A stretch of DNA of 40,837 nucleotides from IMG/VR virus record IMGVR_UViG_3300006854_000016, one strand, 5' to 3'. This DNA is from a virus. Position 1 is the stretch's first letter. The number at the start of each line of letters is the position of its first letter. Below, one piece after another: positions 1 through 40,837 of the stretch. The notes beneath the pieces are model-generated. The model worked only from the letters and a program-made list of their open reading frames with translations. It was not told the DNA's origin and ran no database searches. Both the position numbers and the translations under genes were made by a program.

Positions 1-110
1 GTCATCGCGGTCCCGACGTTCATCCACGCCGCGTTCGGGATCCGGGTGTACTTCCCGGCCGCCGCGCGGAAGGAGGAGCTCGTCGGGTACCCGGTCGGGT
101 CGTTCACGAG
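1..110. repeat. Terminal direct repeat, copy 1 (identical to 40728-40837)
   Basis: 110/110 nt identity between the first and last 110 nt of the window, read directly (gtcatcgcggtcccgacg...ggtcgttcacgag). Confidence 0.97.
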
Positions 111-15472: not shown

Positions 15473-18049
15473 CTATTCGTCGCCCGCCTCGTCTCCGCCT
15501 TCCTCCGGGTGGAGGTCGACCTCGACGTCGCAGGCGCAGGCGGGGTGCGCCGGGTAGATCGCGTCGCCGCTCGGGAAGGCCTGCTCGAGGGGGATGAACC
15601 CGGCCGCGGCGTTCTCGTCGCACTCGTCGGGCTTGCCTTCCCCGTGGACGTTCGAGAGGAGCCAGCGTTTGCCGGCCACCGCCCCGGACTCCCGGTACGT
15701 CTGCATGTTCGCGTACCCGTTGACGAACGCGAGCTCCGTCTCCGCGATCGACCGGGCGCGGTACTCCGAGAAGAGGAAGTTGTCCGAGAGCTCGCCCTGG
15801 AGCTGCTCGGACGTCCAGCCGTCGTCGACAGCCTTCGCGATCATGGCCTGGATGCGGTCCCGGGTCGTGTCCGTGATCGCCATCCGGGGATTCGGGTTGT
15901 CGACTAGCTCGCCGTCGCGCCACTGCTTCCCGACCAGTTCGGCCGCCCGCTCGTGGGCGTACCGGGAGACGATCTCGTTCGTCTTGTTCACGAGCCCCGA
16001 GGAGTCCGCCAGCTCGAGGGAGGCGACCGCGGCCCGCGCCTGCGCCAGGCCGACGAGCCGGAGCTCCGCCTCGACGACCTCGATGAGCGCGTCCGTCCCC
16101 GGTCCGTCGCCGCCCTCCTCCTCCGCCTTCCGAAGACGGGATCCGATGGCCTTCTGCAGGTCGCCCGAAGGCATCGCGCGATCGGCCTCGGAGAGCGCGG
16201 CGAACTCCGAGAGCGCGGCCTTGATGACGCGCGGGCGAGACGCAGCGAGGTAGGACGCGAACCGGTCCTTGAGCCGGTCCTCCGCGTCGCCGTGCTTCGG
16301 GTTGTGCAGCTCTCGGAGGCGGATGCTGCGTTTCGTCCGCCGCCGTCCCTTTTTCTCCAGCTCGACGGCCTTCCCGTTCGCCCGGGCGGAGTGCTTCTCC
16401 GCGCGCTGGATCGCCCGCTCGGCCGGCGAGATCTCGTCGGGCTTCGGCTCGGCGCCCGGACCGTCGACGGGGGCCGGGGCGGGCGCCGGCATCATCGCGC
16501 CCGTCGCGACCATATCGAGCGGTACCGGCCCGCTTCCCGTCTCCACGGTGTAGACGTCGCCGCCCGGGATCGGTCCCTTGCCCTCCTCCTCGCGGATCTC
16601 GTCGCGCGACCGCAGCCCGTTCTTGACCCGGATCTCGTCGGCCTGCGCGTTGTCGAGGTTGTCGCGGCCCTCGCGATCGAGGTCGATGTACTCGATGTTC
16701 GGATGCCCGAGGTACATCTGGATCAGGCGGTTCATGACGCGCCGGCGGAAGTTGAGCCACGGGTCGAGCCCCGTGTCCTGCGCCTCCTTCCCCATCTCCT
16801 CGCTCGTGGCCTGGCCCTGCTTCGTGGTCGAGAGGAGCGCCTGCGGGCTGATGCCCATGAGCCACGCGATCACCCGCGCGAGCCACTCGTCGAACTGGTC
16901 CTTGAGGATGGCGTCCTTGAAGAAGTAGACCGACTCGCCTTCGCCGCCGGGGATGAACTGGACTTGATTCTTCGCCGCGAGGTTGCCGTTGAGCATCGTC
17001 TGCCAGTATTTGTCGATCTGCTCGAGCTGCTCCGGTCCCCACTCCTTCGGGACCTTGATGAGGGCCGGCGGGATGTTGCCGGACGTGTAGTGCTCCAGCT
17101 TGACGATGTCCCGGCGGATCGCCATGTTCACGATCATCATGAGCTGCTCGACCACGGAGTACCCGTAGAGCCGGTTCGACCGCGGGTTGCGGACGACGAG
17201 GAGCAGCTCCCGCGTGGTGAAGTTCGCCGCGATCGCGCCCTTGATCTTCTGCTGGTACGCGGTTGACGGCGGAGAGGGCGTGCGGCCGTCCTCGTTGAGC
17301 CGGCGCAGGATCGTCGCGCCGTCGATCACGTCCAGGGAGAACGGGCGGCCGGAGAGCGTCGGCCGCGTGTAGATCGCCGCCTGGTCGAGGACGATCGAGT
17401 CCTCCGCCCAGACCCGCGTCCACTCCTCGAAGTCGTACTCGGGGTCGCCGTTGTCGAGGCGCTGCGGGTACCGGAGCCAGGCTTCGAGCTCCTTCGCCTC
17501 CGGGTCCTGCTCGGCGCTCTTCTTCGAGCCGATCCGCTGGAGCGTCCAGCGGCGGGAGCTGATCTGGTCCTTCCGCGTCTCGATCGCGCCCCGGAGGATC
17601 GTGCAGCCGTCGGCGAGCGCCCGCAGCTCGTCGAAGGTGACGCCCTGGTCCTCGCCGGGCGTGAACCGGAGGTTGATGTTCGTCTGGTAGTCGCGGGTCC
17701 GCCCCTTCACGTTGTCGGTCGTCGTGAGGTTCGGCGGCTGGCCGGCTCCGAAGAAGCCGGCGCCCGGGCCCGGCTCGATCCGCGAGGGCGTGTCCGGAGC
17801 CGGGGCCGCGCCCGGCTGCCGGTTCTGCGGCACGCTCGCGCTGTTGAGTCCGGGGACGAGCGGGGCGAGCGTCGGGTTCTCGATGAGGCTGCGCGCCGCG
17901 AGCTCGATCGCCTTGCCCAGGATGCGGGGGTCCATCTGCATCGGGGCCGCGGGCCGGACGACCGGGCGGGTCACGGGCCGCGGGGCGTGGGCCTTCTCGA
18001 TCGTGCGGCTCGACGGCCGCCGCCGCTTACCTCCGCCGCGCGTACTCAA
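15473..18049 (-). CDS. Portal protein fused to a Mu gpF / SPP1 gp7-like minor head protein domain
   Basis: 858 aa directly after terL (23-nt overlap). The central region is portal-like. The C-terminal 'FSEYRARSIAETELAFVNGYANMQTY...WLLS...CDENA...YPAHPACACDV' fits the Phage_Mu_F pattern. Confidence 0.8.
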   Translation of the reverse strand: MSTRGGGKRRRPSSRTIEKAHAPRPVTRPVVRPAAPMQMDPRILGKAIELAARSLIENPTLAPLVPGLNSASVPQNRQPGAAPAPDTPSRIEPGPGAGFFGAGQPPNLTTTDNVKGRTRDYQTNINLRFTPGEDQGVTFDELRALADGCTILRGAIETRKDQISSRRWTLQRIGSKKSAEQDPEAKELEAWLRYPQRLDNGDPEYDFEEWTRVWAEDSIVLDQAAIYTRPTLSGRPFSLDVIDGATILRRLNEDGRTPSPPSTAYQQKIKGAIAANFTTRELLLVVRNPRSNRLYGYSVVEQLMMIVNMAIRRDIVKLEHYTSGNIPPALIKVPKEWGPEQLEQIDKYWQTMLNGNLAAKNQVQFIPGGEGESVYFFKDAILKDQFDEWLARVIAWLMGISPQALLSTTKQGQATSEEMGKEAQDTGLDPWLNFRRRVMNRLIQMYLGHPNIEYIDLDREGRDNLDNAQADEIRVKNGLRSRDEIREEEGKGPIPGGDVYTVETGSGPVPLDMVATGAMMPAPAPAPVDGPGAEPKPDEISPAERAIQRAEKHSARANGKAVELEKKGRRRTKRSIRLRELHNPKHGDAEDRLKDRFASYLAASRPRVIKAALSEFAALSEADRAMPSGDLQKAIGSRLRKAEEEGGDGPGTDALIEVVEAELRLVGLAQARAAVASLELADSSGLVNKTNEIVSRYAHERAAELVGKQWRDGELVDNPNPRMAITDTTRDRIQAMIAKAVDDGWTSEQLQGELSDNFLFSEYRARSIAETELAFVNGYANMQTYRESGAVAGKRWLLSNVHGEGKPDECDENAAAGFIPLEQAFPSGDAIYPAHPACACDVEVDLHPEEGGDEAGDE

Positions 18050-19403
18050 TGTCTGCCCTCCTCGTCGATTGCGGGTGCGGCGGATCGCCCGCGTGCGCCT
18101 CGTGCTCCGTGCGGTCTGCCAGCGCCGCCTCCGCCTTCTTCCTCATGTGCTCCAGGATGCCGTCGCCCTTCACGCCCGCGCCACCGTTGAGGAAGAAGTG
18201 CGCGCCGCTCGCGCCGTCGACCCGATCGTCGTGCGTCCCGACCGTGGGGAAGTTGACGAGCTCGTCGATGAACGCCTCATAGTCGTACTCGCCGCGGTAG
18301 ACGCGGACGCGGCCGGCCCCCGCGTCGATCGCCAGCCCCGAGGCCCGGTCGATCTTGTCGGCGCGCTTGGGGTCGGGCTTGAACCGGAATCCTGCATCAG
18401 CCGCAATCCTAGCATACCGGGGGTTCATGCCCTTCGAGTCGCTCCCGGGCTGCTGCTCCTTCACCGCGAGATAGAGCGCGCGCGGGTACCGCTTGAGGTC
18501 CTCGATGCCCTTGAGCTTGAACCGCTCGATGACGACGTCCGAGGTGTCCCGCAGGTACTCCACGTCGGCGAATACGAAGAGGCCGCTCTTCGTCCGCAGC
18601 TCGAGGACGCCCGCCGTCGCGTCCGGGTCGTTGTCCCCCGTGTCCTCCGTGCCGGCGGTGTCCCAGTAGCGGAGCGCCCCGGTGAGCTCGTCGACGGATG
18701 GCAGAGCGTCGACGTACTTGAACCAGTCGCGGCGGAAGACGCCGGCCCCGATGTCGAGGTCCCAGTTGCCCTTGAGGATCGCCTCCCGGATGCGCGGGGG
18801 GAGCTTCTGGAGGGTCTTGAGGTACGCCGGCCGGTCGAGGTACGGGTTGTCCTCCATCACGGCCTTGATGAAGATCTTGTCCGCCGTGGGCTCCGAGTTC
18901 ACGAAATAGCTCTTCACCCACTCGTGCCCCTGGCCGCCCGGGTTCGCGCCCGCCCGGATGCCGAGCGGGACCTCGGAGAGCGGCCCTTCCGACGGGCGTC
19001 GGAGGCGGGACTGGATGCGCTCGTACTCGTACCGCTGGAACTGCGTGAGCTCGTCGATGTAGATGCGCTGAAACTCCGCGGAGTCGTACCGCTCGTACGC
19101 CTTCCGGTTCTCCAGCCCGCCGAACGTGATCGACGCCCCGCCGGCCCCGGTCGATCCCTTCCCGGGGAAGCGGAAGGAGTTCGAGAGGCCGTGCCAGTGC
19201 GCCTTCGTCCCCGCGAACCATTTCGTCGCCCGGTCGAGGAGCGCCTTCGGCTGGCGCAACGCGGTCATGGTACGCCGCAGGATCAGGCCGGCAAACCCGT
19301 CGACCTCCACGAATCGCAGCATGTCCATGAGCCCGACGTCGGACTTCCCCCCGCCCCCGGCGCCGCCGTACAGCGCCTCCTCGCCCTCGAAGAGCAGGAA
19401 CAT
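18027..19403 (-). CDS. terL: Terminase large subunit (start uncertain, see findings)
   Basis: Walker A 'LYGGAGGGGKS', 'ILRRT', Walker B-like 'RIYIDELTQF'. Nuclease half 'RYWDTAGTED', 'GTHDDRVDGASGA'. Confidence 0.9.
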   Translation of the reverse strand: MFLLFEGEEALYGGAGGGGKSDVGLMDMLRFVEVDGFAGLILRRTMTALRQPKALLDRATKWFAGTKAHWHGLSNSFRFPGKGSTGAGGASITFGGLENRKAYERYDSAEFQRIYIDELTQFQRYEYERIQSRLRRPSEGPLSEVPLGIRAGANPGGQGHEWVKSYFVNSEPTADKIFIKAVMEDNPYLDRPAYLKTLQKLPPRIREAILKGNWDLDIGAGVFRRDWFKYVDALPSVDELTGALRYWDTAGTEDTGDNDPDATAGVLELRTKSGLFVFADVEYLRDTSDVVIERFKLKGIEDLKRYPRALYLAVKEQQPGSDSKGMNPRYARIAADAGFRFKPDPKRADKIDRASGLAIDAGAGRVRVYRGEYDYEAFIDELVNFPTVGTHDDRVDGASGAHFFLNGGAGVKGDGILEHMRKKAEAALADRTEHEAHAGDPPHPQSTRRADIEYARRR

Positions 19404-30866: not shown

Positions 30867-31174
30867 GGCTTCGCCCGCTCCCGCTCGATCCGCCGGTCGA
30901 TCTCCCGCGCAGCGGGCGTGCCGGCGAACTGCCTGAGCGCGGGCGCGTCCTTGACGTCCTTGAGTAGCTCGCGGAGCTTGCCGCGCACCTGGGACTCGAA
31001 CGCGGGCTGCAGGAGCGGCGACTTCCTCCGGCGCGCCGAGGCCTCGGAGCGGAGCAGGAGAGAAGCGGGGGTGAGCGCCAGCTTCCCCGCCGCGCGACCC
31101 TCGCCGGCCGCGTGGAGCAGCTCCGCGCAGGCGTCGCGGATCTCGCCGGCCATGACCTCGCGGCGGAGGTTCAT
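30863..31174 (-). CDS. Hypothetical protein
   Basis: 103 aa; ATGA overlap at 31171-31174. Confidence 0.5.
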   Translation of the reverse strand: MNLRREVMAGEIRDACAELLHAAGEGRAAGKLALTPASLLLRSEASARRRKSPLLQPAFESQVRGKLRELLKDVKDAPALRQFAGTPAAREIDRRIERERAKP

Positions 31175-32952
31175 ACGTTCGCCGCGACCAGCGCCCGCGC
31201 GATCGGCGGACAGACCGAATTGCCGCACATCCGGACTTGCGCCGTCTTCGTGAGCCGCTTCCCCTTATACGCGGGCTCGATGTTGTACCCATCTGGGAAG
31301 CCCTGGGCGCGGTAGAGCTCCCGCGGCTGGAGCATCCGCATCCCGATGTCGACGATCTGGTAGTCCTCCCCCTGGATCGTCACGAGCCCGAGCCGCGCCT
31401 TCGCGGTTGCCGTGTGAAGTGGTTCGTCGAGCGCCTGGCCGACGGCCGTGCCGTAGTATTTCACGAGGAAGGCGCGGACCTCGCCGAGGTGGGTCCCCTG
31501 CGCCCTGATCGTGGGCGCCGGCTGGTCGAGCGGCTGGCCGTCCTTGCATGATCCGTGCAGCTTGACCAGGTGCGAGGCGACGGCCGCGTGGTGCGGCCCG
31601 GCGGTCACGGTGCCGAGCGGGAGCTCCGGGTCGCTCCCGCCCATCCCGCCGTTCGCGACCTCGACGTGGCCGACGACGAGACGCTGCTGCGTCCCACGGC
31701 CGACGATGGTCGAGAGCGGCTTCCCCGCCTCGTGTCCGGTCATCCCGGTGTTTGCCTGCTCCATGAACGCGAGGACCGCGGCGTGCCGGTTCTCCGTGGT
31801 CGTCGTCGCCAGCGGCTCGTCCGCCGGCTTCGCGCCCCGGTCCCCGGCGCTCTGGTGGTCGATCGGGACCATGAGCGGGGCGACGACGCCGAACCGGTTC
31901 TCCGTCGTCTGGACGGCCAGCGGATCATCCGCCGCGCGCACGCGGTCGCCGTTCGGACTGGTCTTCCCGTGGTACTCCGTGAGGAAGGGCGTCACGATTG
32001 CGGCGTCCGCCTTCGCCGTCCCGGTCGCGATCGGCTCGTCGATTCCCCGCGGCCGGCTCTGTCCGGCCCGGCCGCCGACTCCGGCGAGGAAGGGCATGAC
32101 GAGCCCGTGCGCGTCGCGGCTGCTCGTCACCGTCCGAAAGGGCTCCTCGACTGATCGCTCCCGGTACGCCCCGGAATGGTTGGCCGTGATGATGACGAAC
32201 GGGTGCGAGGACTCGAACACGAACCGCCGCAGGCCGCGGGCGATCCGCGACATCGTCGCGGGCGCGAGGGGCTTCTTCCGCCCGAAGATAGACGGGCACT
32301 CCTCGTCCCAGTCGATGCACTCCGCCGCGGCGCGGTACGCCGGCAGGCCGTTCGCCTTCGCAGCGTGGGTTGCCTTCGGCCAGACGATCGGCTCGCCGTC
32401 CCGCCGGGCGATGATGAAGAGCCGTTTCCGGATCGTCGGCGCGCCGTAGTCGCAGGCGCGGAGTTCCCGCATCTCGACGACGTACCCGAGCCGCTCAAGT
32501 TTCTTCCACCAGGCGCGGAATGTCCGGCCCACCTGGCGCGGGTTGGGCATCCCGGTCGGCAGCAGCGGGCCCCACGTCTGAAACTCCTCGACGTTCTCAA
32601 GCATGATGATCCTCGGCCGGACCGCCGCGGCCCAGCGGGTGACAATCCACGCGAGGCCGCGGACGCGCTTGCTCACGGGCTTCCCGCCCTTCGCCTTCGA
32701 GAAGTGCTTACAGTCGGGGGAGAACCAGGCGAGCCCGACCGGGCGCCCGGCGCAGACCTTGACCGGGTCGACCTGCCAAACGTCCTCGCAGAGGTGCCGG
32801 GTCTGCGGGTGGTTCGCGCGGTGCATCTCGATCGCTTCGGCGTCGTGGTTAATGGCGATGTCGATCGGCCGGGCGACCGCCTGCTCGATCCCGAGACTCG
32901 CCCCGCCACCACCTGCGAAGTTGTCGACGACGAGCTCCTCGGATGAGATCAC
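31171..32952 (-). CDS. DNA (cytosine-5)-methyltransferase with an expanded variable region
   Basis: 593 aa from the GTG at 32952 (GTGA overlap). Motif I 'FAGGGG', IV 'SPDCKHFS', VI 'ENV', VIII 'PTIRKRLFIIA', IX 'RELYRAQGFPDGY', X 'GNSVCPP'. Confidence 0.9.
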   Translation of the reverse strand: MISSEELVVDNFAGGGGASLGIEQAVARPIDIAINHDAEAIEMHRANHPQTRHLCEDVWQVDPVKVCAGRPVGLAWFSPDCKHFSKAKGGKPVSKRVRGLAWIVTRWAAAVRPRIIMLENVEEFQTWGPLLPTGMPNPRQVGRTFRAWWKKLERLGYVVEMRELRACDYGAPTIRKRLFIIARRDGEPIVWPKATHAAKANGLPAYRAAAECIDWDEECPSIFGRKKPLAPATMSRIARGLRRFVFESSHPFVIITANHSGAYRERSVEEPFRTVTSSRDAHGLVMPFLAGVGGRAGQSRPRGIDEPIATGTAKADAAIVTPFLTEYHGKTSPNGDRVRAADDPLAVQTTENRFGVVAPLMVPIDHQSAGDRGAKPADEPLATTTTENRHAAVLAFMEQANTGMTGHEAGKPLSTIVGRGTQQRLVVGHVEVANGGMGGSDPELPLGTVTAGPHHAAVASHLVKLHGSCKDGQPLDQPAPTIRAQGTHLGEVRAFLVKYYGTAVGQALDEPLHTATAKARLGLVTIQGEDYQIVDIGMRMLQPRELYRAQGFPDGYNIEPAYKGKRLTKTAQVRMCGNSVCPPIARALVAANV

Positions 32953-33152
32953 AGTGTCACCGCGATCGCATCCGCCACGATCCGCGCGACCTCTTCGCCG
33001 CCGTGCTCGATCGCGAGCGCCTGCCACTCGAAGGCGAACGGCTCGGTCGTGGGAGACGGCCAGTGGTTGAAGATCGTCAGCATGAGCGCGCGCGCACGCT
33101 CCGGTGGGATGCCGATCCGCTGCATCCGGTCGGACATCTCGACCGGCGTCAT
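32949..33152 (-). CDS. Hypothetical protein
   Basis: 67 aa; ATGA overlap at 33149-33152. Confidence 0.45.
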   Translation of the reverse strand: MTPVEMSDRMQRIGIPPERARALMLTIFNHWPSPTTEPFAFEWQALAIEHGGEEVARIVADAIAVTL

Positions 33153-33553
33153 CCGCGAAACCGGCGAACCGTCTCCGCGATCGAGCAGACGGCAATCTCC
33201 TTGAAGTCGAGCGGCCCGATCCGGTCGCGCACTCGGGGAAGCCACGGCCGCACGACGAGGAGTGTCACTCCTCGGCGGTGCGCCGCGCGGAGTTCCGAGC
33301 CCACGCCGGCCGAGAAGGTGCCGTCGCGGAAGGGCATCGCGACCACGCTCGCGGCGTGGGAGGCGATGAGGTCGAAGAGGTCCATCCCCACGAGCGGGCA
33401 GAAGACGTCCGCGGCGTCGCGCATCTCCGGCGCGCCCGGGTTCACGATGTTCGGGGACATGAAGTGCTGGTTGATGACGGCGAGCGCGTCGCGCTCGTCC
33501 TTCCGGCCGTACGTCTCCATGGGGTGAGCGAAGTAGACGTAGTGGCGGGTCAT
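33149..33553 (-). CDS. Nucleoside 2-deoxyribosyltransferase-like fold protein (putative)
   Basis: 134 aa; ATGA overlap at 33550-33553. 'YVYFAHPMETYG' and 'ASVVAMPFRDGTFSAGVGSELRAAHRRGVTLLVV' resemble NDT-like/DUF4406-type motifs (weak, by eye). Confidence 0.35.
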   Translation of the reverse strand: MTRHYVYFAHPMETYGRKDERDALAVINQHFMSPNIVNPGAPEMRDAADVFCPLVGMDLFDLIASHAASVVAMPFRDGTFSAGVGSELRAAHRRGVTLLVVRPWLPRVRDRIGPLDFKEIAVCSIAETVRRFRG

Positions 33554-34536
33554 GACGTGCCCTCAGAAATCGACTCGCCCGACTCGCGAACCCGGTCCTG
33601 CCATCCTTCCTTGAGCGGCGCGAGCTCCATCGGTTTCCCGGAGTCGTCGAGACGGTACCAGGTGTTCGGCTTGATCCCGTCCTCGCCCGGATAGAGAACT
33701 ACCACGCGCTGGCGCTTCGCCTTATCATCCCAGCGCCCGAGAAGGATATAGCCGCGATCGGTCGCGGAGGCGCTGCCGCGGTCCCCGGTCGCGGAGGCGC
33801 TGCCGAGGTACCCGGTCGCGGAGGCGCTGCCGCGGTCCCCGGTCGCGGAGGCGCTGCCGCGGTACCCGGTCGCGGAGGCGCTGCCGAGGTCCCCGGTCGC
33901 GGAGGCGCTGCCGCGGTACCCGGTCGCGGAGGCGCTGCCGCGGTCCCCGGTCGCGGAGGCGCTGCCGCGGTACCCGGTCGCGGAGGCGCTGCCGAGGTCC
34001 CCGGTCGCGGAGGCGCTGCCGAGGTCCCCGGTCGCGGAGGCGCTGCCGAGGTACCCGGTCGCGGAGGCGCTGCCGCGGTCCCCGGTCGCGCCGGTGATCC
34101 CACACACCATCCCCGCCTTCATCCCGGCGTCCGGAAGGTGGCGCATGATGAGCTCGACCGCCTCCTCACGCTTGCCACAGTAGACGACCTCGCCTGCGGG
34201 ATACTTCACTTTTCCGTCGAGGTTCTGGCACTCAGCCGCCTTCACTTTCACCGCGAGCCAGATCGCATCCTCGGCCCAGTTCAGTAGACCGCCGTCGCCG
34301 ATTCCCCACAGGAGCCCGTGCAGGCCGTGGCCGCACTCGCCGTCCTTCCTCCAGTCCGGCGCCGCGACCGGTCCGGAGTTCGGCCAGGTGAAATCGTCGT
34401 GGCTCGTCATGTCCTGGCGGCATGTCCGGAGGACCAGCGCCTCGCCGTCGGCGAGCGTGATTGAAGGAATTACAGCAGTGGATTCACAAGCGGCGGGCAC
34501 ATTGTCATTCTCTTCACAACGCTTCGCATAGCTCAT
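33550..34536 (-). CDS. Nonapeptide-repeat protein (N-terminal Cys/Trp-containing domain + 12 x GSASATG[D/Y][R/L])
   Basis: Start re-called to the ATG at 34536 (AAGGAG-N7-ATG); the track starts at the GTG at 34557. The repeats are read directly. Confidence 0.8.
   Translation of the reverse strand: MSYAKRCEENDNVPAACESTAVIPSITLADGEALVLRTCRQDMTSHDDFTWPNSGPVAAPDWRKDGECGHGLHGLLWGIGDGGLLNWAEDAIWLAVKVKAAECQNLDGKVKYPAGEVVYCGKREEAVELIMRHLPDAGMKAGMVCGITGATGDRGSASATGYLGSASATGDLGSASATGDLGSASATGYRGSASATGDRGSASATGYRGSASATGDLGSASATGYRGSASATGDRGSASATGYLGSASATGDRGSASATDRGYILLGRWDDKAKRQRVVVLYPGEDGIKPNTWYRLDDSGKPMELAPLKEGWQDRVRESGESISEGTS
33760..34083 (-). repeat. 12 head-to-tail 27-bp tandem repeats, in frame within the CDS
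   Basis: Plus-strand unit ggtcgcggaggcgctgcc-g[c/a]ggt[c/a]ccc. 25/27 positions are invariant in all 12 copies. A degenerate 13th copy lies at 34084-34101. Confidence 0.97.
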
Positions 34537-34590
34537 CGTGTTCTCCTTTTCGATCACAAGTACCGCCGCACCCTGCGGCGGTCTGCATCT

Positions 34591-34620
34591 TGTTTACCAT
34601 GCTACCCCCGGGCGCGTCAA
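34591..34620 (-). promoter_or_regulatory. Promoter-like element TTGACG-N18-TAAACA (TG-extended) upstream of the repeat-protein gene
   Basis: Minus strand TTGACGCGCCCGGGGGTAGCATGGTAAACA. The upstream gene's TGA lies inside the -35. The -10 overlaps the 12-mer GTAAACAAGATG. Confidence 0.35.
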
Positions 34621-35192
34621 GTCCTCCGGCGGCGGTCCTCCACCAGGCGGCGGAATCGGGCGGTCCGGACCGGGTCCGGGTCCGGCTCCGAACCACTCCC
34701 GCGGGCGGCGGGCTGGTTCACATGGAACTCCGAAGATATGGATGAAGTACTTATAGGCGATTGGACACGAGGATCAACCCCTAGCGGTGTCAGTGGTGCT
34801 GACACCAAATCGGGGTGGACACGAGCTGGACGCGTCCAACCGGCTGGACGCGATCCGCTGCCCCTCGCGGGCTTCGGGGGCGGCGCATACCGCAGGGTGT
34901 AGACGGCGGGTCGGGATGGGTTCTTGTCCCGCTCGATCGTGATAAACCCGGCGCGCTCGAGGTCCTGGAGGAGCTGATGGACGCGCCCGTGGCTCAGTCC
35001 GATGTCCCGCGCGAGCGCCCGGATGCCCGGCCATGCCCGGGCCGTCTGGCGGTCGCGGTACTGGTCGAGGGCGGCGTACAGCGCGACCGCGGCCATCGGG
35101 ACGAGCCCCTGCCGCATGGCGTTGATGAGCGGGAAGGGGACGTGGGAGAACCGCTGCCGGCCGTCCTCGATCCGGACTCGCTGCTCAGGCAC
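34617..35192 (-). CDS. Winged-HTH protein (HTH_36-like), putative replication initiator/regulator
   Basis: 191 aa; GTG start overlaps the upstream stop (GTGCCTGA). 'MAAVALYAALDQYRDRQTARAWPGIRALARDIGLSHGRVHQLLQDLERAGFITIER'. The C-terminal third is low-complexity and overlaps iteron-like DNA. Confidence 0.55.
   Translation of the reverse strand: MPEQRVRIEDGRQRFSHVPFPLINAMRQGLVPMAAVALYAALDQYRDRQTARAWPGIRALARDIGLSHGRVHQLLQDLERAGFITIERDKNPSRPAVYTLRYAPPPKPARGSGSRPAGWTRPARVHPDLVSAPLTPLGVDPRVQSPISTSSISSEFHVNQPAARGSGSEPDPDPVRTARFRRLVEDRRRRT
34725..34852. other. Putative replication origin: AT-rich patch, perfect 8-bp hairpin and TGGAC-containing direct repeats
   Basis: tggacacgag at 34762-34771 and 34816-34825. 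ctggacgcg at 34826-34834 and 34844-34852. ggtgtcag-tggtg-ctgacacc at 34786-34806. AT-rich 34725-34760. Confidence 0.35.
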
Positions 35193-35449: not shown

Positions 35450-35655
35450 GCCGCCCCCGTCCGCCGGACCGCCCGCCCGTCGGTCAGCGGGAGCCCCAGC
35501 CGCCCGAGGTTGTACCGCACCGTCGGCGCGGTCCGCTCCTCCCCAATGAGCTCCATGACCTCGGCCAGGGTCGGCGGGCGACCGTGCTCCGCGGCGAGCT
35601 CGGGGTGGACGTCCCGCAGGCAGGCGACCAGCGAGGCGTCGACGGGGCGGCTCAC
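35446..35655 (-). CDS. LexA-N-terminal-like winged-HTH protein
   Basis: 69 aa; GTGA overlap with the endolysin stop at 35652-35655. 'GRPPTLAEVMELIGEERTAPTVRYNLGRLG' resembles the LexA DNA-binding domain. Confidence 0.45.
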   Translation of the reverse strand: MSRPVDASLVACLRDVHPELAAEHGRPPTLAEVMELIGEERTAPTVRYNLGRLGLPLTDGRAVRRTGAA

Positions 35656-36374
35656 GCGAGGGGCCGGAGGATCTGCCGCAGGCTGGCCTCCGTGCCGGCG
35701 TACCAGTTCACGTCGACCGCGTGGTCGCAGCCGGCGATCCGCTCCTCCCCGTACTGCCAGAACTCCCACTGCGAGAAGGGCGCGGGCATCGCGGGGGGAT
35801 AGGGCCGGTAGTCCGCGACCCAGAGCCGGGCGATGCCCTCCGGCGGGATCCACCCGCCGAGCTGCTCGTCGACCCACGACCGGCCGCAGTAGATCAACGG
35901 CCGCCGGCCCGTGGCGAACTTGACGTGGTTGAGCGCCTGGGAGATCACCTGCCGGCGCTCGTGGAGCGTGAGCCGCGTCCAGTCGTCCCCCGTGCCGTCC
36001 CCGGTGACGTCCTTCCCGCACCACTCCAGATCGAGGACCGGCTGGAGTTGAAGCCCGCCGATCGCGCGCAGGTCCGCGAGGAAGGCGTCCACCTGGCGGG
36101 CGACGTCGGCCAGCGGCCGGAAGAAATGATACCCGCCGCAGCAGAACCCGGCAGCTCGAGCGGCCTCGAAGTTCTCGCGCAAGTCCGGATCCGCGAACGT
36201 CACGCCCTCCCGCGCCTTGATGAAGGCGAACCGGGAGCCGGCGGCGTAGAGGACCGGCCAGTCGATGTCGTCGTCGTGGTTGATGTCGACGCCGTGGACG
36301 GCGCCGATGAAGGGCGGGACGCGAGCCGCCCCGGGGGCGGCGGGTGCCGCGCCCCGGGGGTCGTCAGGAGTCAT
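35652..36374 (-). CDS. GH25-family muramidase (endolysin)
   Basis: 'GVDINHDDDIDW', 'FAFIKAREGVTFADPDLRENFEAARAAGFCCGGYHFFRP' and 'QPVLDLEW' match GH25 lysozyme motifs. Confidence 0.85.
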   Translation of the reverse strand: MTPDDPRGAAPAAPGAARVPPFIGAVHGVDINHDDDIDWPVLYAAGSRFAFIKAREGVTFADPDLRENFEAARAAGFCCGGYHFFRPLADVARQVDAFLADLRAIGGLQLQPVLDLEWCGKDVTGDGTGDDWTRLTLHERRQVISQALNHVKFATGRRPLIYCGRSWVDEQLGGWIPPEGIARLWVADYRPYPPAMPAPFSQWEFWQYGEERIAGCDHAVDVNWYAGTEASLRQILRPLA

Positions 36375-37637: not shown

Positions 37638-37825
37638 CGTTTTCCCACATTCAACGCGATGACGACAGCGAGGATGCCGCCAAACAGCGCCGCCGCGTCC
37701 TGCCCGTCACCGTGTTTCCGCGTCACATGGCCGGTGCCGGTATCAAGGACATCCCCTTGATGCAGGACCAGCGGCCCCGTGGCGCATCCGGCCATCAGCA
37801 GGGCCAGCAGCAGGCAGCGGGTCAC
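37634..37825 (-). CDS. Small lipoprotein with C-terminal TM segment (spanin-like)
   Basis: 63 aa; GTGA overlap at 37822-37825. Lipobox 'LLMAG|C'. C-terminal 'AAALFGGILAVVIALNV'. Confidence 0.55.
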   Translation of the reverse strand: MTRCLLLALLMAGCATGPLVLHQGDVLDTGTGHVTRKHGDGQDAAALFGGILAVVIALNVGKR

Positions 37826-39063
37826 AATGTACTCGCCGTGCGAACCGATCCGTCCACAACAGAGAGCGGGGCCGCGTAGAAGATGACGCGGTAGACGTGG
37901 CCGCGCAGCGGGCTACCGCCGCTCCCGACGGCTCCAAACGTCGTATTGGCCGTCGAACCATCCGGCATCGCGCAGACCGTATCGGTTGCACCAACTTGCT
38001 TGCCGCTGCTAAATGCTTTCGTCAGGTTGGTCGTGTAAGACTGCCCAAGGGCCAATCTCGTCCCTACTACAAATGTTGCGCCCGCGATATTCCACTGGGC
38101 CGAAGCGGTAGTGCCCGCCATTCCGGACACGCCAGTGGTGGCCGTCATGGAGTTGTGTACGCCCTGCGTGATACCGCCCCCTGATCCCGTAGTGATCGTA
38201 TATTGTGCCCCCCCGCTGACAAAGTTCACGTCCGAAATTGTGAACAGCGATCCGGGGTACATCACGTTTCCTGCCGATACGAGCGTCAGGGCATCGCGGT
38301 TCCTCGTGACCACGCCACCACCCGTGATGATGGCCGACGTGGAGGTTACCCCAGCCTCATCCTGACAGAGGCACACGTCAACGGCATCGCCGCTCGTCAC
38401 GATCCGAATGGCAAAGCGCGGGTCTTTGGCTGTGATGTTTTGCAGCCCAAGCACTTGCATCCACGATCCCGTGACGGTGAGTGTGAGCCACATGCTTCCG
38501 TCGCGGGTAATCGTCATGTCGATATTCCCCGTTCCAGTGATCCGGCGAATCCAGAGAGACTGCGACCGAGCCGCGTTCGACGATGTAATGTCCGCGTAGA
38601 TGGTCGCGTTCGCGCTGGTGGCCGTCAGGCGGGTTGCGTTGTTCGCCACGCCGTCCGGTCCAGTAGACGTGAACGCCGCCGTCATGTTCGTAGCAATCCA
38701 TGGGGTGCCGCTCAACTTGTCGTTGTTTTGTAGATCATTCGTGGCAGCAGGCTCCATGATGATCCCATTCGCCTCGATCCCCACTTCCCCGGAGATTCCT
38801 CGCACGAGTAGTCCTGTGGTTGGATTGACATATGTTCTACCCGTCGTGCGCGTGAACGTCGCCACGCCCGACCCGCGTGCGGCGTCCGGCGTCAGCGTGG
38901 CGTTCGGCGTGATGACGTAGGTGACGTAATCCTTTTCGTCGTCGTCGAGTGACGCCGCGTATCCACCGAACGAGGTTGCCTTCATGCCGAGACATGGGGC
39001 GCTTCCGGTGAACGCGAATGCGGGTCCAGCAGCGAATAGGATCGCCGCGAGAATACGACGCAT
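37822..39063 (-). CDS. Tail fibre / receptor-binding-type protein (jelly-roll glycan-binding-like domain) with signal-like N-terminus
   Basis: 413 aa. 'ATFTRTTGRTYVNPTTGLL...EPAATNDLQNNDKLSGTPWIATNMTA...GPDGVANNATRL' and 'QDEAGVTSTSAIITGGGVVTRNRDALTL' match a recurrent phage fibre module pattern. GC is lower than the flanks. Confidence 0.55.
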   Translation of the reverse strand: MRRILAAILFAAGPAFAFTGSAPCLGMKATSFGGYAASLDDDEKDYVTYVITPNATLTPDAARGSGVATFTRTTGRTYVNPTTGLLVRGISGEVGIEANGIIMEPAATNDLQNNDKLSGTPWIATNMTAAFTSTGPDGVANNATRLTATSANATIYADITSSNAARSQSLWIRRITGTGNIDMTITRDGSMWLTLTVTGSWMQVLGLQNITAKDPRFAIRIVTSGDAVDVCLCQDEAGVTSTSAIITGGGVVTRNRDALTLVSAGNVMYPGSLFTISDVNFVSGGAQYTITTGSGGGITQGVHNSMTATTGVSGMAGTTASAQWNIAGATFVVGTRLALGQSYTTNLTKAFSSGKQVGATDTVCAMPDGSTANTTFGAVGSGGSPLRGHVYRVIFYAAPLSVVDGSVRTASTL

Positions 39064-40181
39064 CAGGGCGTCGGCCCGTGCATCGGCGGCGTCGGCCCCG
39101 CCTCGAAGATGTTTGACCCCCCGTTCTTGAAGTTGATCGTGTACTTGATGCTGAGCGTCTGCCCTTCACCGACCGGCGTCGGCCCAAACCATCGCAGTCG
39201 CAGGAAGGGCGGGGGCGAGGGAATGACATACGTTCCGCTCGTCATGATGACGTTCGACGGGGACAGCGAATCATTCCACAACGGGTCGGTGGCGGTTGTC
39301 GGAAGATAGCCGCCGAACGCGCTGTCCCACGACAGAGTCGAGGATTGCCCGCCATACGCCGCGTGGTCCGTTGCCACCTTGTTATCCACCTTGATCGTGA
39401 TGGACGCCGCGCCTCGGCAGTCGATGAACCCTTGCGACCCCGTGGTAGAGAGTGTCCAACTTGTGACATAGCAGGTGTTCGTGATCGACCCGACACCCGT
39501 GATGCTAAAACTGAAAGGCACCTGCGCCCCGCTCTGCGGCTGTACGAACGCCGCGTTCGCGGAGGAATACCCCGGCAGCGTGTTGGAGAACGACACATGG
39601 AAGGGCCACACGTCACTCGCCCCCGTCGCGGCCCCGGTCACGGAGAGGGTCATGAGCCATCCGGCAGCATTCGCTGCGGCCATGCCCTGGTTGAACGTCG
39701 CATTGGGCTGTCCCGTCAGCGACACCGTGAACGTCCCCGTGCCAGCGTTCGCCGTGACCGTGGCATTCGGCTGGCCCGTGAGGGATACGGTGAAGGTGCC
39801 GGTCCCCGCGTTCGCGGTCACCGTCCCCCAGATGTTTGTCGCGCCCCCGGTCCCAGTCTGCGTGACCCAGATCGGCTTCGTCGCCGCGCCGCCGAAGGAC
39901 GCGGTCGAGATGGACACGATCCACGGGCTCGTCGACTGCGAGACGCTCGCGGCCGTGCTCGAGCTGACGGGCGTGACCATGAGGCCGCCCGTCGACGGGT
40001 CGATCTTGAAGGGCAGGAGGACCCCGGTGTTCGTGGACGAGAAGCCGAGGTTCATCGAGAACGGCTGGTGGACGATGTACGCCTGCTGGGCGTCGGTCAC
40101 GGTCCGCGGGAGGGCCGCGGCGGAACGGCCGGCGAGGAGGAAGAGGGCGGCGACGAGCGATCGGACCGGCTTATTCCACAT
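39063..40181 (-). CDS. Secreted/fibre-like beta-rich protein with an internal 21-aa perfect duplication
   Basis: 372 aa; GGAAGGAG RBS. Signal-like 'MWNKPVRSLVAALFLLAGRSAAA'. 'TVTANAGTGTFTVSLTGQPNA' occurs twice. Confidence 0.6.
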   Translation of the reverse strand: MWNKPVRSLVAALFLLAGRSAAALPRTVTDAQQAYIVHQPFSMNLGFSSTNTGVLLPFKIDPSTGGLMVTPVSSSTAASVSQSTSPWIVSISTASFGGAATKPIWVTQTGTGGATNIWGTVTANAGTGTFTVSLTGQPNATVTANAGTGTFTVSLTGQPNATFNQGMAAANAAGWLMTLSVTGAATGASDVWPFHVSFSNTLPGYSSANAAFVQPQSGAQVPFSFSITGVGSITNTCYVTSWTLSTTGSQGFIDCRGAASITIKVDNKVATDHAAYGGQSSTLSWDSAFGGYLPTTATDPLWNDSLSPSNVIMTSGTYVIPSPPPFLRLRWFGPTPVGEGQTLSIKYTINFKNGGSNIFEAGPTPPMHGPTP

Positions 40182-40264: not shown

Positions 40265-40837
40265 CTACTTCCCGGCGTTGTAGATGGCCGCGAGCTGCGC
40301 CAGGCTCATGCAGAGGCCGGAATACAGGATCCCGTCCTCGTGCAGGCCGTCACTCTCGGCCCCGGCGGCGTCCGGATAGGAGCCGACGCAGAAGTCCTGC
40401 GTCGCCGCGTTGATCGGCTCCGGACTCCCGTGCGCGGCGCCCGCGAAGTCCAGGACGAGCCCGGTCGAGGGACGGCCGATATACGCCCGCACCCGCAGGC
40501 CGTCGTACGTCATGGCGATCATGGTCTTGTCCCCGGTCGTGATGTCCCCCGCGCCGAGGCGCTCGATGTGGTTGCCGCCGGCCGTGGTGTGGTAGAGGGT
40601 CGCCAGCCGCGTTTCGCCGATGAAGTTGTACATCGCAAACCCGGTCGCCAGGGAGAGCTCGGCGCAGCCGATCAGGTACCGGTCGTGGGCACCGTTCACC
40701 CCCGGTAGGCTGATCCAGTTGATGAGGGTCATCGCGGTCCCGACGTTCATCCACGCCGCGTTCGGGATCCGGGTGTACTTCCCGGCCGCCGCGCGGAAGG
40801 AGGAGCTCGTCGGGTACCCGGTCGGGTCGTTCACGAG
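40265..40837 (-). CDS. C-terminal part of the junction-spanning tail protein: LamG / concanavalin-A-like lectin domain
   Basis: Track ORF 40265..40834. 'AAGKYTRIPNAAWMNVGTAMTLINWI', 'GDKTMIAMTYDGLRVRAYIG' and the terminal 'GILYSGLCMSLAQLAAIYNAGK' fit the Laminin_G_3 pattern. The apparent GTG start at 40834 is an artefact of the window edge. Confidence 0.7.
   Translation of the reverse strand, partial: LVNDPTGYPTSSSFRAAAGKYTRIPNAAWMNVGTAMTLINWISLPGVNGAHDRYLIGCAELSLATGFAMYNFIGETRLATLYHTTAGGNHIERLGAGDITTGDKTMIAMTYDGLRVRAYIGRPSTGLVLDFAGAAHGSPEPINAATQDFCVGSYPDAAGAESDGLHEDGILYSGLCMSLAQLAAIYNAGK
40728..40837. repeat. Terminal direct repeat, copy 2 (identical to 1-110)
   Basis: Same 110-nt string as bases 1-110. 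Confidence 0.97.

What the first reader, a model, noticed from the sequence alone, without database searches (positions are those of the whole stretch)
33760..34083. Twelve DNA-identical 27-bp repeats with exactly two dimorphic sites, encoding GSASATG[D/Y][R/L]
The units are head to tail and invariant at 25 of 27 positions. Only two sites vary, and each is strictly two-state: coding-strand G/T switches codon 8 between GAC and TAC (D/Y) and codon 9 between CGC and CTC (R/L). All four combinations occur (DR x4, YR x3, DL x3, YL x2). Such near-perfect DNA identity implies very recent expansion or ongoing homogenisation, and it makes the array prone to copy-number change by slippage or recombination. 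The two-state sites suggest a patterned surface on a beta-solenoid-like stack. The gene sits just after the initiator-like gene, behind its own promoter-like element, in the early region, which suggests host takeover or anti-defence rather than virion structure. From memory, similar x-G-[DY]-x-S-x-A-x-A nonapeptide arrays follow a 'W-P..G...PDW....CG.GLHG' N-domain in uncharacterised phage proteins; I cannot verify that here.
Basis: partly seen in the sequence, partly recalled or inferred. Interest (0 to 1): 0.75.

Follow-up and report, generated by a model that had tools for sequence, protein, structure and literature searches.

The report
Hypervariable repeat array in phage early protein
The twelve near-identical 27-bp repeats are real and lie inside an early, non-structural phage gene of the Bbp36/"VR2" family, a widespread group of phage proteins, first noticed in Bordetella phages about 20 years ago, whose repeat arrays change quickly in length and pattern and whose function is still unknown.

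Summary
Window 33760-34083 holds 12 in-frame 27-bp units that are identical at 25 of 27 positions. The two G/T sites (coding strand) give D/Y and R/L, with counts DRx4, YRx3, DLx3, YLx2.

The gene (33550-34536, minus strand, 328 aa) is a clear homologue of Bbp36 of Bordetella phage BPP-1 (E = 3e-36). The Bbp36 repeat is the annotated "variable region 2". The shared architecture is a DUF7666 N-domain, an octa- or nonapeptide array with a DNA-identical core and a variable last dipeptide, and a conserved C-terminal cap.

The array behaves as a fast-evolving in-frame repeat. A second metagenome contig is 100% identical over 13.4 kb but carries 1 unit instead of 12. Four near-identical Bordetella phages carry 7, 14, 20 and 20 units. 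Three diverged lineages keep the same two G/T sites while their unit cores differ only at synonymous positions, which indicates concerted evolution plus maintained dimorphism.

AlphaFold gives a moderate-confidence beta-strand stack with about two units per turn and D/Y in the turn.

The N-domain resembles the C-terminal domain of T4-type RIIB. The array plus cap resembles E. coli YdhT.

Function remains unknown; a role in phage-host conflict is inferred, not shown. This is a new member of a known, uncharacterised kind.

The parts
33550..34536 (-). CDS of 328 aa (ATG 34536, stop TGA 33550-33552): Bbp36-family, DUF7666-containing, non-structural phage protein
   Evidence: ORF list. GC3 = 0.84 in this frame. 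tblastn to BPP-1 Bbp36: 43.6% identity, 85% coverage, E = 3e-36. phrog_18079 at 1e-50. An identical protein, P0001, exists in the JGI collection.
34537..34616 (-). Spacer upstream of the gene, with the Shine-Dalgarno sequence AAGGAG 5 nt before the ATG and a short GC hairpin; no consensus promoter found
   Evidence: Sequence, RNA fold z = -1.97, promoter scan negative in this spacer.
34132..34458 (-). N-terminal globular domain (aa 27-135), DUF7666 type, with the motif F-x-W-P...P-D-W...C-G-x-G-L-H-G
   Evidence: Pfam PF24703 scores 26.0 bits against a cut-off of 27; the precomputed annotation lists PF24703.3 for the same protein. AlphaFold2 pLDDT is 90-98. Invariant C68, G71, K111 and near-invariant W51, P52, W62, L72, H73, G74. 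Foldseek finds RIIB proteins; hhalign against the rIIB C-terminal profile gives probability 63%, E = 7e-5.
34075..34101 (-).
33760..34083 (-). Array of 12 x 27 bp, coding strand GGG[G/T]ACC[G/T]CGGCAGCGCCTCCGCGACC = G[D/Y][R/L]GSASAT. The dimorphic nucleotides lie at + strand 33779+27k and 33783+27k (k = 0..11).
   Evidence: The dipeptide order in the direction of translation is DR YL DL DL YR DR YR DL YR DR YL DR.
33751..33777 (-). Trailing truncated unit GSASATDRG, the junction to the C-terminal domain
33622..33750 (-). C-terminal cap domain (aa 263-305), YILLGRWDDKAKRQRVVVLYPGEDGIKPNTWYRLDDSGKPMEL, conserved across the family and in E. coli YdhT
   Evidence: Alignment A1. pLDDT 88-95. phrog_4433. 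BLASTP to YdhT aa 125-269, E = 1e-7.
33553..33621 (-). C-terminal tail (aa 306-328) with low-confidence structure, shared only with the closest relatives (P0002, P0003)
33149..33553 (-). Downstream 134-aa gene of unknown function; its ATG overlaps the stop codon of the repeat gene (ATGA). Context only; not conserved next to bbp36 homologues.
   Evidence: No family hits. No similarity to the neighbours of homologues.
34617..35192 (-). Upstream gene: O-like replication initiator / HTH_36 protein (context: early region)
   Evidence: phrog_391 at 5e-8; Pfam HTH_36 at 25.4 bits.

Best explanation
The array is a VR2-type, in-frame, variable-number tandem repeat inside a Bbp36-family (DUF7666) early, non-structural phage protein.

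Shown:
- The protein has three parts: a compact N-domain, a run of nonapeptide units, and a small C-terminal cap.
- Across the family, positions 1-7 of each unit (G-[S/A/H]-A-S-A-T-G) are essentially invariant, and only the last two codons vary, drawn from a small alphabet. Here that alphabet is the four combinations of D/Y and R/L.
- Within any one array the cores are DNA-identical, although they differ at synonymous sites between lineages. This is concerted evolution.
- Copy number and unit order differ between genomes that are otherwise identical.

Inferred:
- Misaligned recombination or replication slippage between the 22-nt identical cores adds, deletes and reshuffles units. Because the unit is 9 codons, the reading frame is always kept. 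The result is a protein of variable length and pattern, not an on/off switch.
- Selection keeps the scaffold residues fixed and keeps the turn dipeptide heterogeneous.
- The units most likely fold as a thin beta-strand stack with about two units (18 residues) per turn. The G-[D/Y]-[R/L] turn then forms an exposed ladder along the rod, held between the N-domain and the C-cap.
- The gene sits in the early operon and the N-domain resembles the C-terminal domain of RIIB, which is an anti-RexAB factor and a trigger of bacterial gasdermin and Tmn defences. The most likely role is therefore an accessory protein in phage-host conflict, whose variable ladder is the surface under diversifying pressure.

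Confidence by step: family membership and repeat dynamics about 0.9; beta-stack fold about 0.55; conflict or anti-defence role about 0.35.
For: Homology to Bbp36, whose repeat is annotated VR2. The same three-part architecture appears in 37 aligned homologues.

Family-wide unit statistics: 113 of the 120 best hits have at least 3 nonapeptides (median 12, maximum 24). Positions 1-7 are near invariant. Position 8 is D 38%, Y 36%, N 10%; position 9 is R, Q or S. Arrays use 2-9 different dipeptides.

DNA-level variation is concentrated in codons 8-9: 20 of 36 positions vary there against 8 of 126 elsewhere in six arrays, Fisher p = 5e-10.

Concerted evolution with conserved dimorphism: the window, L003 and L066 units differ at many synonymous sites but share G/T at unit nucleotides 22 and 26.

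Copy-number differences: window versus L002, 12 versus 1 unit, with 0 mismatches in 13,431 flanking bp; BPP-1 14, BMP-1 20, BIP-1 20 and vB_BbrP_003 7 units with identical flanks; P0006 with 12 units versus P0126 with 2. The literature reports 9-20 copies by isolate, bbp36 non-essential and not linked to tropism (PMC2884959, citing Liu et al. 2004).

Fold: AlphaFold2 strands SASAT / xGSASAT alternate with period 18, with the turn at G-[D/Y]. E. coli YdhT carries a degenerate, non-homogenised 9-residue array xxG[DYEN]xxx[IV][AGS] plus the same C-cap. This argues for a folded repeat rather than a disordered linker.

Early-region position. RIIB resemblance. RIIB roles: PMC10312443 and PMC13001434.
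Against: No experiment or annotation gives a function; every homologue is 'hypothetical' or misnamed.

The array part of the model has only pLDDT 55-71, and no PDB structure matches (best E = 1.2), so the fold is not established.

The one-unit variant might be an assembly collapse rather than a real allele, because no reads were available. Many homologues work with only 1-3 units, so a long array is not required for whatever the protein does.

The RIIB link is remote: hhalign probability is 63%, Foldseek E-values are 4e-4 to 1e-2, and T4 rIIB does not hit DUF7666 in Pfam. The protein lacks RIIB's N-terminal HTH.

No PADLOC or anti-defence family hit. The D/Y alternation seen here is not a family rule.
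Confidence: 0.75

Rival explanations
1. The array is an assembly artefact (spurious expansion or mis-ordering), or conversely the true state is the 1-unit form and the 12-unit form is wrong.
For: An ENA MEGAHIT contig (L002) is 100% identical on both sides but has 1 unit. The array contains exact repeats up to 107 bp, so it is only resolvable at k >= 109. Ten of 52 public genome loci of this family end inside the array, which shows that assemblers struggle with it.
Against: An assembler cannot invent a non-periodic order of four unit types. Arrays of 3-30 units are the rule in more than 100 homologues, including Sanger-era and isolate phage genomes. The usual failure mode seen here is a contig break, not a clean collapse. 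The 1-unit form corresponds to a simple deletion between two 35-nt direct repeats, and short arrays occur naturally.
Confidence: 0.07
2. The repeat is merely a flexible, intrinsically disordered spacer between two domains. The dimorphic sites would be neutral leftovers of unit duplication with no patterned surface.
For: Moderate-to-low pLDDT in the array (55-71), and 40 for the single unit of P0002. The Tweety paper notes that such repeats are often associated with unstructured proteins (PMC2884959). Copy number is very free, from 1 to 30.
Against: The scaffold residues are under strong purifying selection: 11 synonymous and 0 non-synonymous differences between lineages. The same two sites are dimorphic with the same alleles in three lineages. 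The diverged YdhT array has regularly spaced I/V residues, typical of a folded solenoid core. The predicted strands are regular.
Confidence: 0.15
3. It is a collagen-like or tail-fibre virion protein, as suggested by Pfam Collagen and the PHROG 'tail fiber' or 'collagen-like minor tail' hits.
For: Pfam Collagen 34.4 bits, above its cut-off. About 15 PHROG tail or tail-fibre families at 1e-10 to 1e-2. PDB sequence hits to collagens.
Against: Gly occurs at unit positions 1 and 7 of 9, not at every third residue, so no Gly-X-Y triple helix is possible. The hits cover only the low-complexity array. The gene lies in the early/replication block, about 14 kb from the terminase-portal-capsid-tail block. 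The best PHROGs (18079, 4433) have unknown function. bbp36 variation is reported not to track tropism.
Confidence: 0.03
4. The two-state sites are written by a dedicated mutagenic system (DGR-like retrohoming or other targeted editing) rather than by recombination and selection.
For: Across the family, position 8 is mostly D/Y/N/H, i.e. NAC codons differing in the first base. This is superficially reminiscent of DGR codon design. The founding member lies in the DGR phage BPP-1.
Against: No reverse transcriptase was found among the 20 ORFs scanned with PHROGs (10 of them also with Pfam), which include all large unassigned ones. There is no distant template copy of the unit in the genome. The substitutions are G/T, not adenine-specific. 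Unit types recur as whole cassettes.
Confidence: 0.02

Closest known systems
Bbp36 with 'variable region 2' (VR2) of Bordetella phages BPP-1, BMP-1 and BIP-1 (Liu et al. 2002/2004, as cited in PMC2884959)
   Same: True homologue (43.6% identity over 85% of the protein, E = 3e-36). Same N-domain motif, same C-terminal cap, an in-frame array with a DNA-identical core plus a variable last 5-6 bp, the same early/non-structural location, and an array that differs among otherwise identical genomes.
   Different: The unit is 24 bp / 8 aa (GTATAG + YR/ES/NY/EK) rather than 27 bp / 9 aa. The cassettes differ at several bases rather than at two binary sites. The host and the rest of the genome are unrelated.
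Pfam DUF7666 (PF24703) proteins of phages, prophages and giant viruses
   Same: The N-domain matches over aa 34-122, and the precomputed annotation assigns PF24703.3. Most DUF7666 proteins found here carry the same nonapeptide array and C-cap.
   Different: The window protein belongs to the 'CG.GLHG' subtype, which scores just under the Pfam cut-off (26.0 versus 27). The model is centred on the 'C..GFH.C' subtype, which scores about 120 bits. No function is attached to the family.
C-terminal domain of T4-type RIIB (PF26926 in the precomputed annotation)
   Same: Fold-level similarity of the N-domain: five RIIB proteins at Foldseek E = 4e-4 to 1e-2, rmsd about 3-3.6 A over 103-113 columns. Shared C-x-x-G-L-H motif followed by a V-x-V-x-V strand; hhalign probability 63%, E = 7e-5 over 84 columns. 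Both are early, non-structural and dispensable.
   Different: No N-terminal HTH, no rIIA partner found, no repeats in RIIB. The homology is remote and unproven, and the RIIB mechanism is itself unknown.
E. coli K-12 YdhT (b1669; NCBIfam NF007410)
   Same: A 9-residue periodic array with G-[D/Y/E/N] at the same position, followed by the same C-terminal cap (...GE.nI.....YRL......vE). BLASTP E = 1e-7 over aa 155-304.
   Different: The YdhT repeats are degenerate at both protein and DNA level, with no homogenisation and an I/V core. The N-terminal part is different, and the gene is chromosomal in the ydhYVWXUT operon. The score is 32.5 bits against the family cut-off of 300, so the window protein is not a member.
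Mycobacteriophage Tweety gp54 / Che8 gp57 / PMC gp51 tetrapeptide-repeat proteins (PMC2884959)
   Same: An early-region, dispensable phage protein with an expanded in-frame GC-rich repeat. The number differs between relatives (48/26/15) and variation is confined to two residues of the unit.
   Different: 12-bp / 4-aa unit (A-A-x-x). No sequence homology was shown here; this is an analogy only.
Bacterial ice nucleation proteins (InaZ/InaA type beta-solenoids)
   Same: Repeat-level resemblance (TAGYGSTxTAG..S.L versus ATGYRGSASATGD.). Y-type and acidic-type half-units occur. Burkholderia phage Mica's homologue was annotated 'ice nucleation protein' from a BLAST hit of 4e-10.
   Different: INPs have 16-residue units in 48-residue super-repeats, a membrane-anchoring N-domain and outer-membrane location. 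None of these is present here.

Membership tests
Bbp36 / VR2-type phage proteins | Homologous N-terminal domain with F-x-W-P ... P-D-W ... C-G-x-G-L-H-G | tested here: met
   tblastn E = 3e-36 to BPP-1 Bbp36 over aa 29-306; the motif aligns residue for residue.
Bbp36 / VR2-type phage proteins | In-frame tandem array of 24-27 bp units with an invariant core followed by a short variable segment drawn from a few variants | tested here: met
   A 22-nt invariant core plus [G/T]ACC[G/T], 4 variants, 12 units. BPP-1 has a 19-nt core plus 5 variable nt.
Bbp36 / VR2-type phage proteins | Conserved C-terminal domain (W.D...R.R....G.dGI.....Y.L) | tested here: met
   Alignment A1; pLDDT 88-95.
Bbp36 / VR2-type phage proteins | Array copy number or order differs between otherwise identical genomes | tested here: inconclusive
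   12 versus 1 unit with 0 mismatches in 13.4 kb of flanks, but both are short-read metagenome assemblies and no reads were available. This is directly seen for the Bordetella phages (7, 14, 20, 20 units).
Bbp36 / VR2-type phage proteins | Non-structural, dispensable for growth, no effect on tropism | not testable with these tools
   Only the position in the early block is shown. Dispensability is reported for BMP-1 bbp36 in PMC2884959.
Pfam DUF7666 (PF24703) | Score at or above the gathering threshold of the model | tested here: inconclusive
   26.0 bits against a cut-off of 27.0 in the local copy. The precomputed annotation of the identical protein lists PF24703.3. Relatives score about 120 bits.
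T4-type RIIB | N-terminal HTH domain plus C-terminal C..GLH.C domain, encoded next to rIIA | tested here: not met
   No HTH in the protein. No rIIA-like hit among the 20 ORFs scanned. Only the C-terminal domain shows remote similarity.
Collagen triple-helix repeat (PF01391) | Gly at every third residue (Gly-X-Y) over long runs | tested here: not met
   Gly occurs at positions 1 and 7 of each 9-residue unit. The Pfam hit covers 14 residues of low-complexity sequence.
Ice nucleation proteins | 16-residue repeats in 48-residue super-repeats, with an N-terminal membrane-anchor domain | tested here: not met
   The period is 9 aa / 27 bp only. The N-domain is DUF7666. No Pfam or NCBIfam INP hit.
Diversity-generating retroelement variable region | Nearby reverse transcriptase and a template repeat differing from the variable region at adenines | tested here: not met
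   No RT among the ORFs scanned. No second copy of the unit elsewhere in the 40.8-kb genome. The variation is G/T.
YdhT (NCBIfam NF007410) | Whole-protein score at or above the curated cut-off (300 bits) | tested here: not met
   32.5 bits, covering only the array plus C-cap. The N-terminal halves are unrelated.

The most novel reading that the evidence does not exclude
The array is a recombination-driven (non-DGR) cassette-shuffling device. It would continually re-pattern an exposed D/Y-R/L ladder on a beta-solenoid rod attached to an RIIB-like effector domain. On this reading the Bbp36/DUF7666 family is a very widespread class of phage counter-defence or decoy proteins, whose hypervariable rod either escapes host immune sensors or tracks variable host targets. 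The dimorphic sites conserved across lineages would be the signature of that selection.
Probability: 0.2. Interest if true: 0.75.

Novelty: new member of a known kind. Interest (0 to 1): 0.45.

Why it matters
The feature itself is not new. VR2 in bbp36 was described in the early 2000s, and the N-domain is catalogued as DUF7666. However, the family is very large: 1,719 clusters at 50% identity reach E <= 1e-3. It occurs in (pro)phages of Proteobacteria, Bacteroidota, Actinomycetota, Chloroflexota, Planctomycetota, Verrucomicrobiota, Saccharibacteria and others, and it has no known function.

This window adds a clean example with strictly binary variable sites. Three observations here make the question more testable:
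- The same two dimorphic nucleotides persist across lineages whose unit cores have diverged at synonymous sites. This indicates selection for heterogeneity on top of homogenisation.
- The N-domain looks like the C-terminal domain of RIIB, a classical anti-exclusion factor and a known trigger of bacterial immune systems.
- E. coli K-12 YdhT carries a degenerate version of the array plus cap.

Practically, these arrays break or may collapse short-read assemblies, so their diversity is under-recorded.

Tried and rejected
- Near-identical DNA in cultured phages: none. The terminase is at most 36% identical to any cultured phage, so the host is unknown.
- Exact flank patterns in IMG/VR and JGI metagenome contigs: no match, so no further alleles of this phage could be compared. 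The window protein itself is not on record in the contig index.
- Close relatives in GTDB genomes: none. The full alignment was too diverse to use as a query. A smaller alignment gave 52 distant loci.
- PDB by sequence: only spurious collagen hits. PDB by fold: nothing with E below 1. YdhT against PDB: nothing.
- Defence and anti-defence libraries: no PADLOC hit.
- Conserved gene neighbourhood: the neighbours of the window gene show no similarity to the neighbours of homologues in BPP-1, CP1, D14O, Mica, Pan4 or phage 5399. There is therefore no conserved operon partner.
- DGR: no RT and no template repeat.
- Own promoter: none found by consensus scan. The spacer hairpin is not remarkable, z = -1.97.
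- Literature: no paper mentions DUF7666. The A1S_2505 and YdhT searches were uninformative. The Liu et al. 2004 paper is not held, so it is cited only through PMC2884959.
- The near-perfect D/Y alternation (P = 0.0076) is not seen in other family members, so it is not used as evidence for a rule.
Full report
**1. The observation**

The window is a complete, apparently circular phage genome. Its ends, 1-110 and 40728-40837, are identical. GC content is about 69% and essentially all genes are on the minus strand.

At 33760-34083 there are twelve head-to-tail 27-bp units. Twenty-five of the 27 columns are invariant. Columns 20 and 24 (+ strand) are each C x7 / A x5, which is G/T on the coding strand. 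Tandem Repeats Finder gives 33759-34090, period 27, 12.3 copies, score 594.

The units are in frame with a 328-aa ORF (33550-34536, minus strand). Its ATG is preceded by AAGGAG. The units read G[D/Y][R/L]GSASAT, with DR x4, YR x3, DL x3 and YL x2.

Two additional points:
- The two sites are independent (Fisher p = 1). R/L order is unremarkable, but D/Y alternates at 10 of 11 junctions (P = 0.0076).
- The longest exact internal repeat is 107 bp, so the array can only be assembled at k >= 109 or with spanning reads.

**2. Genomic context**

PHROG and Pfam scans identify these genes:
- large terminase, 18027-19403
- portal, 15473-18049
- protease and capsid-region genes
- tail genes, which wrap around the contig ends
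- a GH25 endolysin, 35652-36374

After the endolysin comes an early block. It starts with a consensus promoter-like site at 35449-35420, followed by:
- small HTH proteins
- an O-like initiator/HTH_36 protein, 34617-35192
- the repeat gene
- a 134-aa unknown whose start overlaps the repeat gene's stop codon
- a C5 DNA methyltransferase, 31171-33195
- an AAA_24 protein

The gene is therefore early and non-structural by position. No consensus promoter lies in its own 59-bp upstream spacer.

**3. What the protein is**

A tblastn search against 50,697 phage records gives Bordetella phage BPP-1 Bbp36 as best hit (43.6% identity, 85% coverage, E = 3e-36). The region under the match is annotated "variable region 2; VR2".

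Bbp36 has the same three-part architecture:
- an N-domain with F-x-W-P...PDW...CGHGLHG
- 14 units of 24 bp, GTATAG + YR/ES/EK, DNA-identical except for the last 5-6 bases
- a C-terminal WWDAKAERYRTVLGYVGEDGIKADTKYRLDD

The Tweety genome paper (PMC2884959) summarises Liu et al. 2002/2004. VR2 is a 19-bp repeat plus one of three 5-bp spacers, repeated 9-20 times depending on the isolate. bbp36 is not essential, and the variation does not track tropism.

Pfam places the N-domain in DUF7666. The local score is 26.0 bits against a cut-off of 27, and the precomputed annotation of the identical protein lists PF24703.3.

The Pfam "Collagen", PHROG "tail fiber" and PDB collagen hits cover only the Gly-rich array. 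They are compositional, because Gly sits at positions 1 and 7 of 9, not at every third residue.

**4. Family-wide anatomy**

The word-indexed search found 1,865 proteins at E <= 1e-5. An exhaustive HMMER search with the one-unit variant found 1,719 50%-identity clusters at E <= 1e-3 and 1,111 at <= 1e-10.

Of the 120 best hits, 113 have at least 3 in-register nonapeptides (median 12, maximum 24). Positions 1-7 are G-[A/H/S]-A-S-A-T-G, almost without exception. Position 8 is D 38%, Y 36%, N 10%. Position 9 is mostly R, Q or S. Arrays use 2-9 different dipeptides. Other members have only 1-3 units.

Fifty-two loci in GTDB genomes come from many phyla. Nearly all carry 24- or 27-bp arrays of 3-30 copies at 88-100% identity. 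Ten of these contigs end inside the array.

At the DNA level, variation is concentrated in codons 8-9: 20 of 36 positions vary there, against 8 of 126 elsewhere, in six arrays (p = 5e-10).

**5. Repeat dynamics**

(a) An ENA MEGAHIT contig (L002, 13.4 kb held) is 100.000% identical to the window on both sides (3,187 + 10,244 bp, no mismatch). It lacks exactly 297 bp, or 11 units. This is a deletion between two 35-nt direct repeats, and it encodes P0002, which has a single GSASAT unit. I cannot tell a real allele from an assembly collapse without reads. The usual failure mode in this family is a contig break, and short arrays occur naturally, so I judge a real allele somewhat more likely.

(b) BPP-1, BMP-1, BIP-1 and vB_BbrP_003 have identical flanks. 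Their arrays hold 14, 20, 20 and 7 units, with different orders of YR, ES, NY and EK.

(c) P0006 (12 units) and P0126 (2 units) share the same flanks.

(d) Concerted evolution is visible across three lineages. The window unit is GGCAGCGCCTCCGCGACCGGGKACCKC. L003 has GGATCAGCGAGCGCCACGGGCKACCKT, which differs at 11 of 27 nt, all synonymous. L066 has GGCTCGGCCTCTGCTACCGGGKACCKG. Within each array the cores are identical, and all three lineages are G/T-dimorphic at the same two nucleotides, giving D/Y and R/L.

So the scaffold is under purifying selection, the arrays are homogenised, and the two-site heterogeneity is nevertheless maintained. All four combinations of two sites 4 nt apart also imply recurrent mutation or very fine-scale exchange. 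No reverse transcriptase and no template copy exist in the genome, so a DGR mechanism is excluded.

**6. Structure**

AlphaFold2 with a 37-sequence alignment gives pLDDT 90-98 for the N-domain (aa 27-135), 88-95 for the C-cap, and 55-71 for the array. In the array, strands SASAT and xGSASAT alternate with an 18-residue period, and G-[D/Y] lies in the turn. This is compatible with a thin beta-solenoid of two units per coil carrying a D/Y-R/L ladder, but confidence is moderate.

The one-unit variant folds into the same N- and C-domains, with the single unit unstructured. Foldseek finds no PDB analogue (best E = 1.2).

Independent support for a folded repeat comes from E. coli K-12 YdhT. Its residues ~99-224 form a degenerate 9-residue array, xxG[D/Y/E/N/F/M]xxx[I/V][A/G/S], followed by the same C-cap (BLASTP E = 1e-7; NCBIfam NF007410 hit at 6e-8). 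No Pfam model covers this array-plus-cap module.

**7. A lead on function**

Foldseek against predicted viral structures returns two kinds of hit. Some are DUF7666 proteins. Interleaved with them at similar scores are five RIIB proteins, from Caulobacter phage Seuss, Pseudomonas phage PspYZU05, Aeromonas phage 65.2, Salmonella phage 38 and Vibrio phage Kuja. Their E-values are 4e-4 to 1e-2, with rmsd about 3-3.6 A over 103-113 columns for the domain-sized alignments.

An HMM of the N-domains aligns to T4 rIIB residues 229-299 around C-S-R-G-L-H-V-C. Profile-profile comparison gives 63% probability, E = 7e-5, over 84 columns. The rIIB C-terminal relatives are annotated PF26926.

RIIB is needed to overcome RexAB and is itself the trigger of a bacterial gasdermin system (PMC10312443) and of Tmn (PMC13001434). 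The similarity is remote and the RIIB mechanism is unknown. This supports, but does not establish, a role in phage-host conflict. No PADLOC hit was found, and no gene partner is conserved across homologues.

**8. Verdict**

The feature is a new member of the known VR2/Bbp36 (DUF7666) kind: an in-frame, homogenised, copy-number-variable repeat. Its only free positions are the two turn codons.

Shown: the repeat-dynamics part of the explanation, which rests on comparative data. Moderately supported: the beta-stack fold. Inferred: the anti-defence or conflict role.

It was right on homogenisation, instability, the N-domain and the early location. The promoter is not supported and the function is untested.

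Noticed in passing
window 1-110 and 40728-40837: The two contig ends are 100% identical over 110 nt. The window is therefore a complete, circularly closed (or terminally redundant) phage genome of about 40,727 bp, with all genes on one strand.
   Followed up: partly
window 34132-34458 (N-domain) versus T4 rIIB (L008:1466-2404, aa 229-299): The DUF7666 N-domain resembles the C-terminal domain of RIIB proteins. Foldseek finds 5 RIIB hits (E = 4e-4 to 1e-2); hhalign gives 63% probability, E = 7e-5; both share a C-x-x-G-L-H motif. I found no paper in the held library stating this link.
   Followed up: partly
L067:6748-7560 (E. coli K-12 ydhT, b1669) versus window 33622-34074: YdhT, an uncharacterised protein of the ydhYVWXUT operon, carries about 14 degenerate 9-residue repeats (xxG[DYEN]xxx[IV][AGS]) and the same C-terminal cap as the phage protein (BLASTP E = 1e-7). 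No Pfam model covers this module.
   Followed up: partly
L003:256-936 and L066:419-1183 versus window 33760-34083: Three diverged lineages share the same alphabet GSASATG[D/Y][R/L], with G/T dimorphism at unit nucleotides 22 and 26, while their cores use different synonymous codons. This is a polymorphism within arrays that is shared across lineages.
   Followed up: yes
window 33760-34083: D and Y alternate at 10 of 11 unit junctions (P = 0.0076), as expected if Y and D stack on opposite edges of a solenoid with two units per turn. Other family members do not show strict alternation.
   Followed up: partly
L015, L019, L020, L023, L030, L033, L038, L044, L055, L059: Ten of 52 public genome or MAG contigs carrying a family member end inside the repeat array. 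These arrays are systematic assembly breakpoints, so their diversity is under-sampled.
   Followed up: partly
window 39692-39825 and 39060-39098: Two further tandem repeats (63 bp x 2.1 at 77% identity; 21 bp x 1.9), in and next to the unassigned 372-aa gene 39063-40181, which lies beside the tail-like gene 37822-39063.
   Followed up: no
window 31761-31934 (within the C5 DNA methyltransferase gene 31171-33195): An internal 66-nt duplication (73% identity, 108 nt apart) encodes two copies of a 'PLA..TTENR' motif. It sits in a large insertion between the N- and C-terminal methylase parts of a 674-aa ORF.
   Followed up: no
window 38001-39000: GC content drops to 0.60 against about 0.69 elsewhere, over the tail-like gene 37822-39063. 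This may be a recently acquired receptor-binding module.
   Followed up: no
window 33550-33553: The stop codon of the repeat gene overlaps the start of the next gene (ATGA), which suggests translational coupling with a 134-aa protein that has no detectable family.
   Followed up: partly
L004 (BMP-1 VR2): The BMP-1 array contains one truncated 18-bp unit (GTATAG directly followed by GTATAGES). Unit boundaries are therefore not always respected by whatever process rearranges the array.
   Followed up: no
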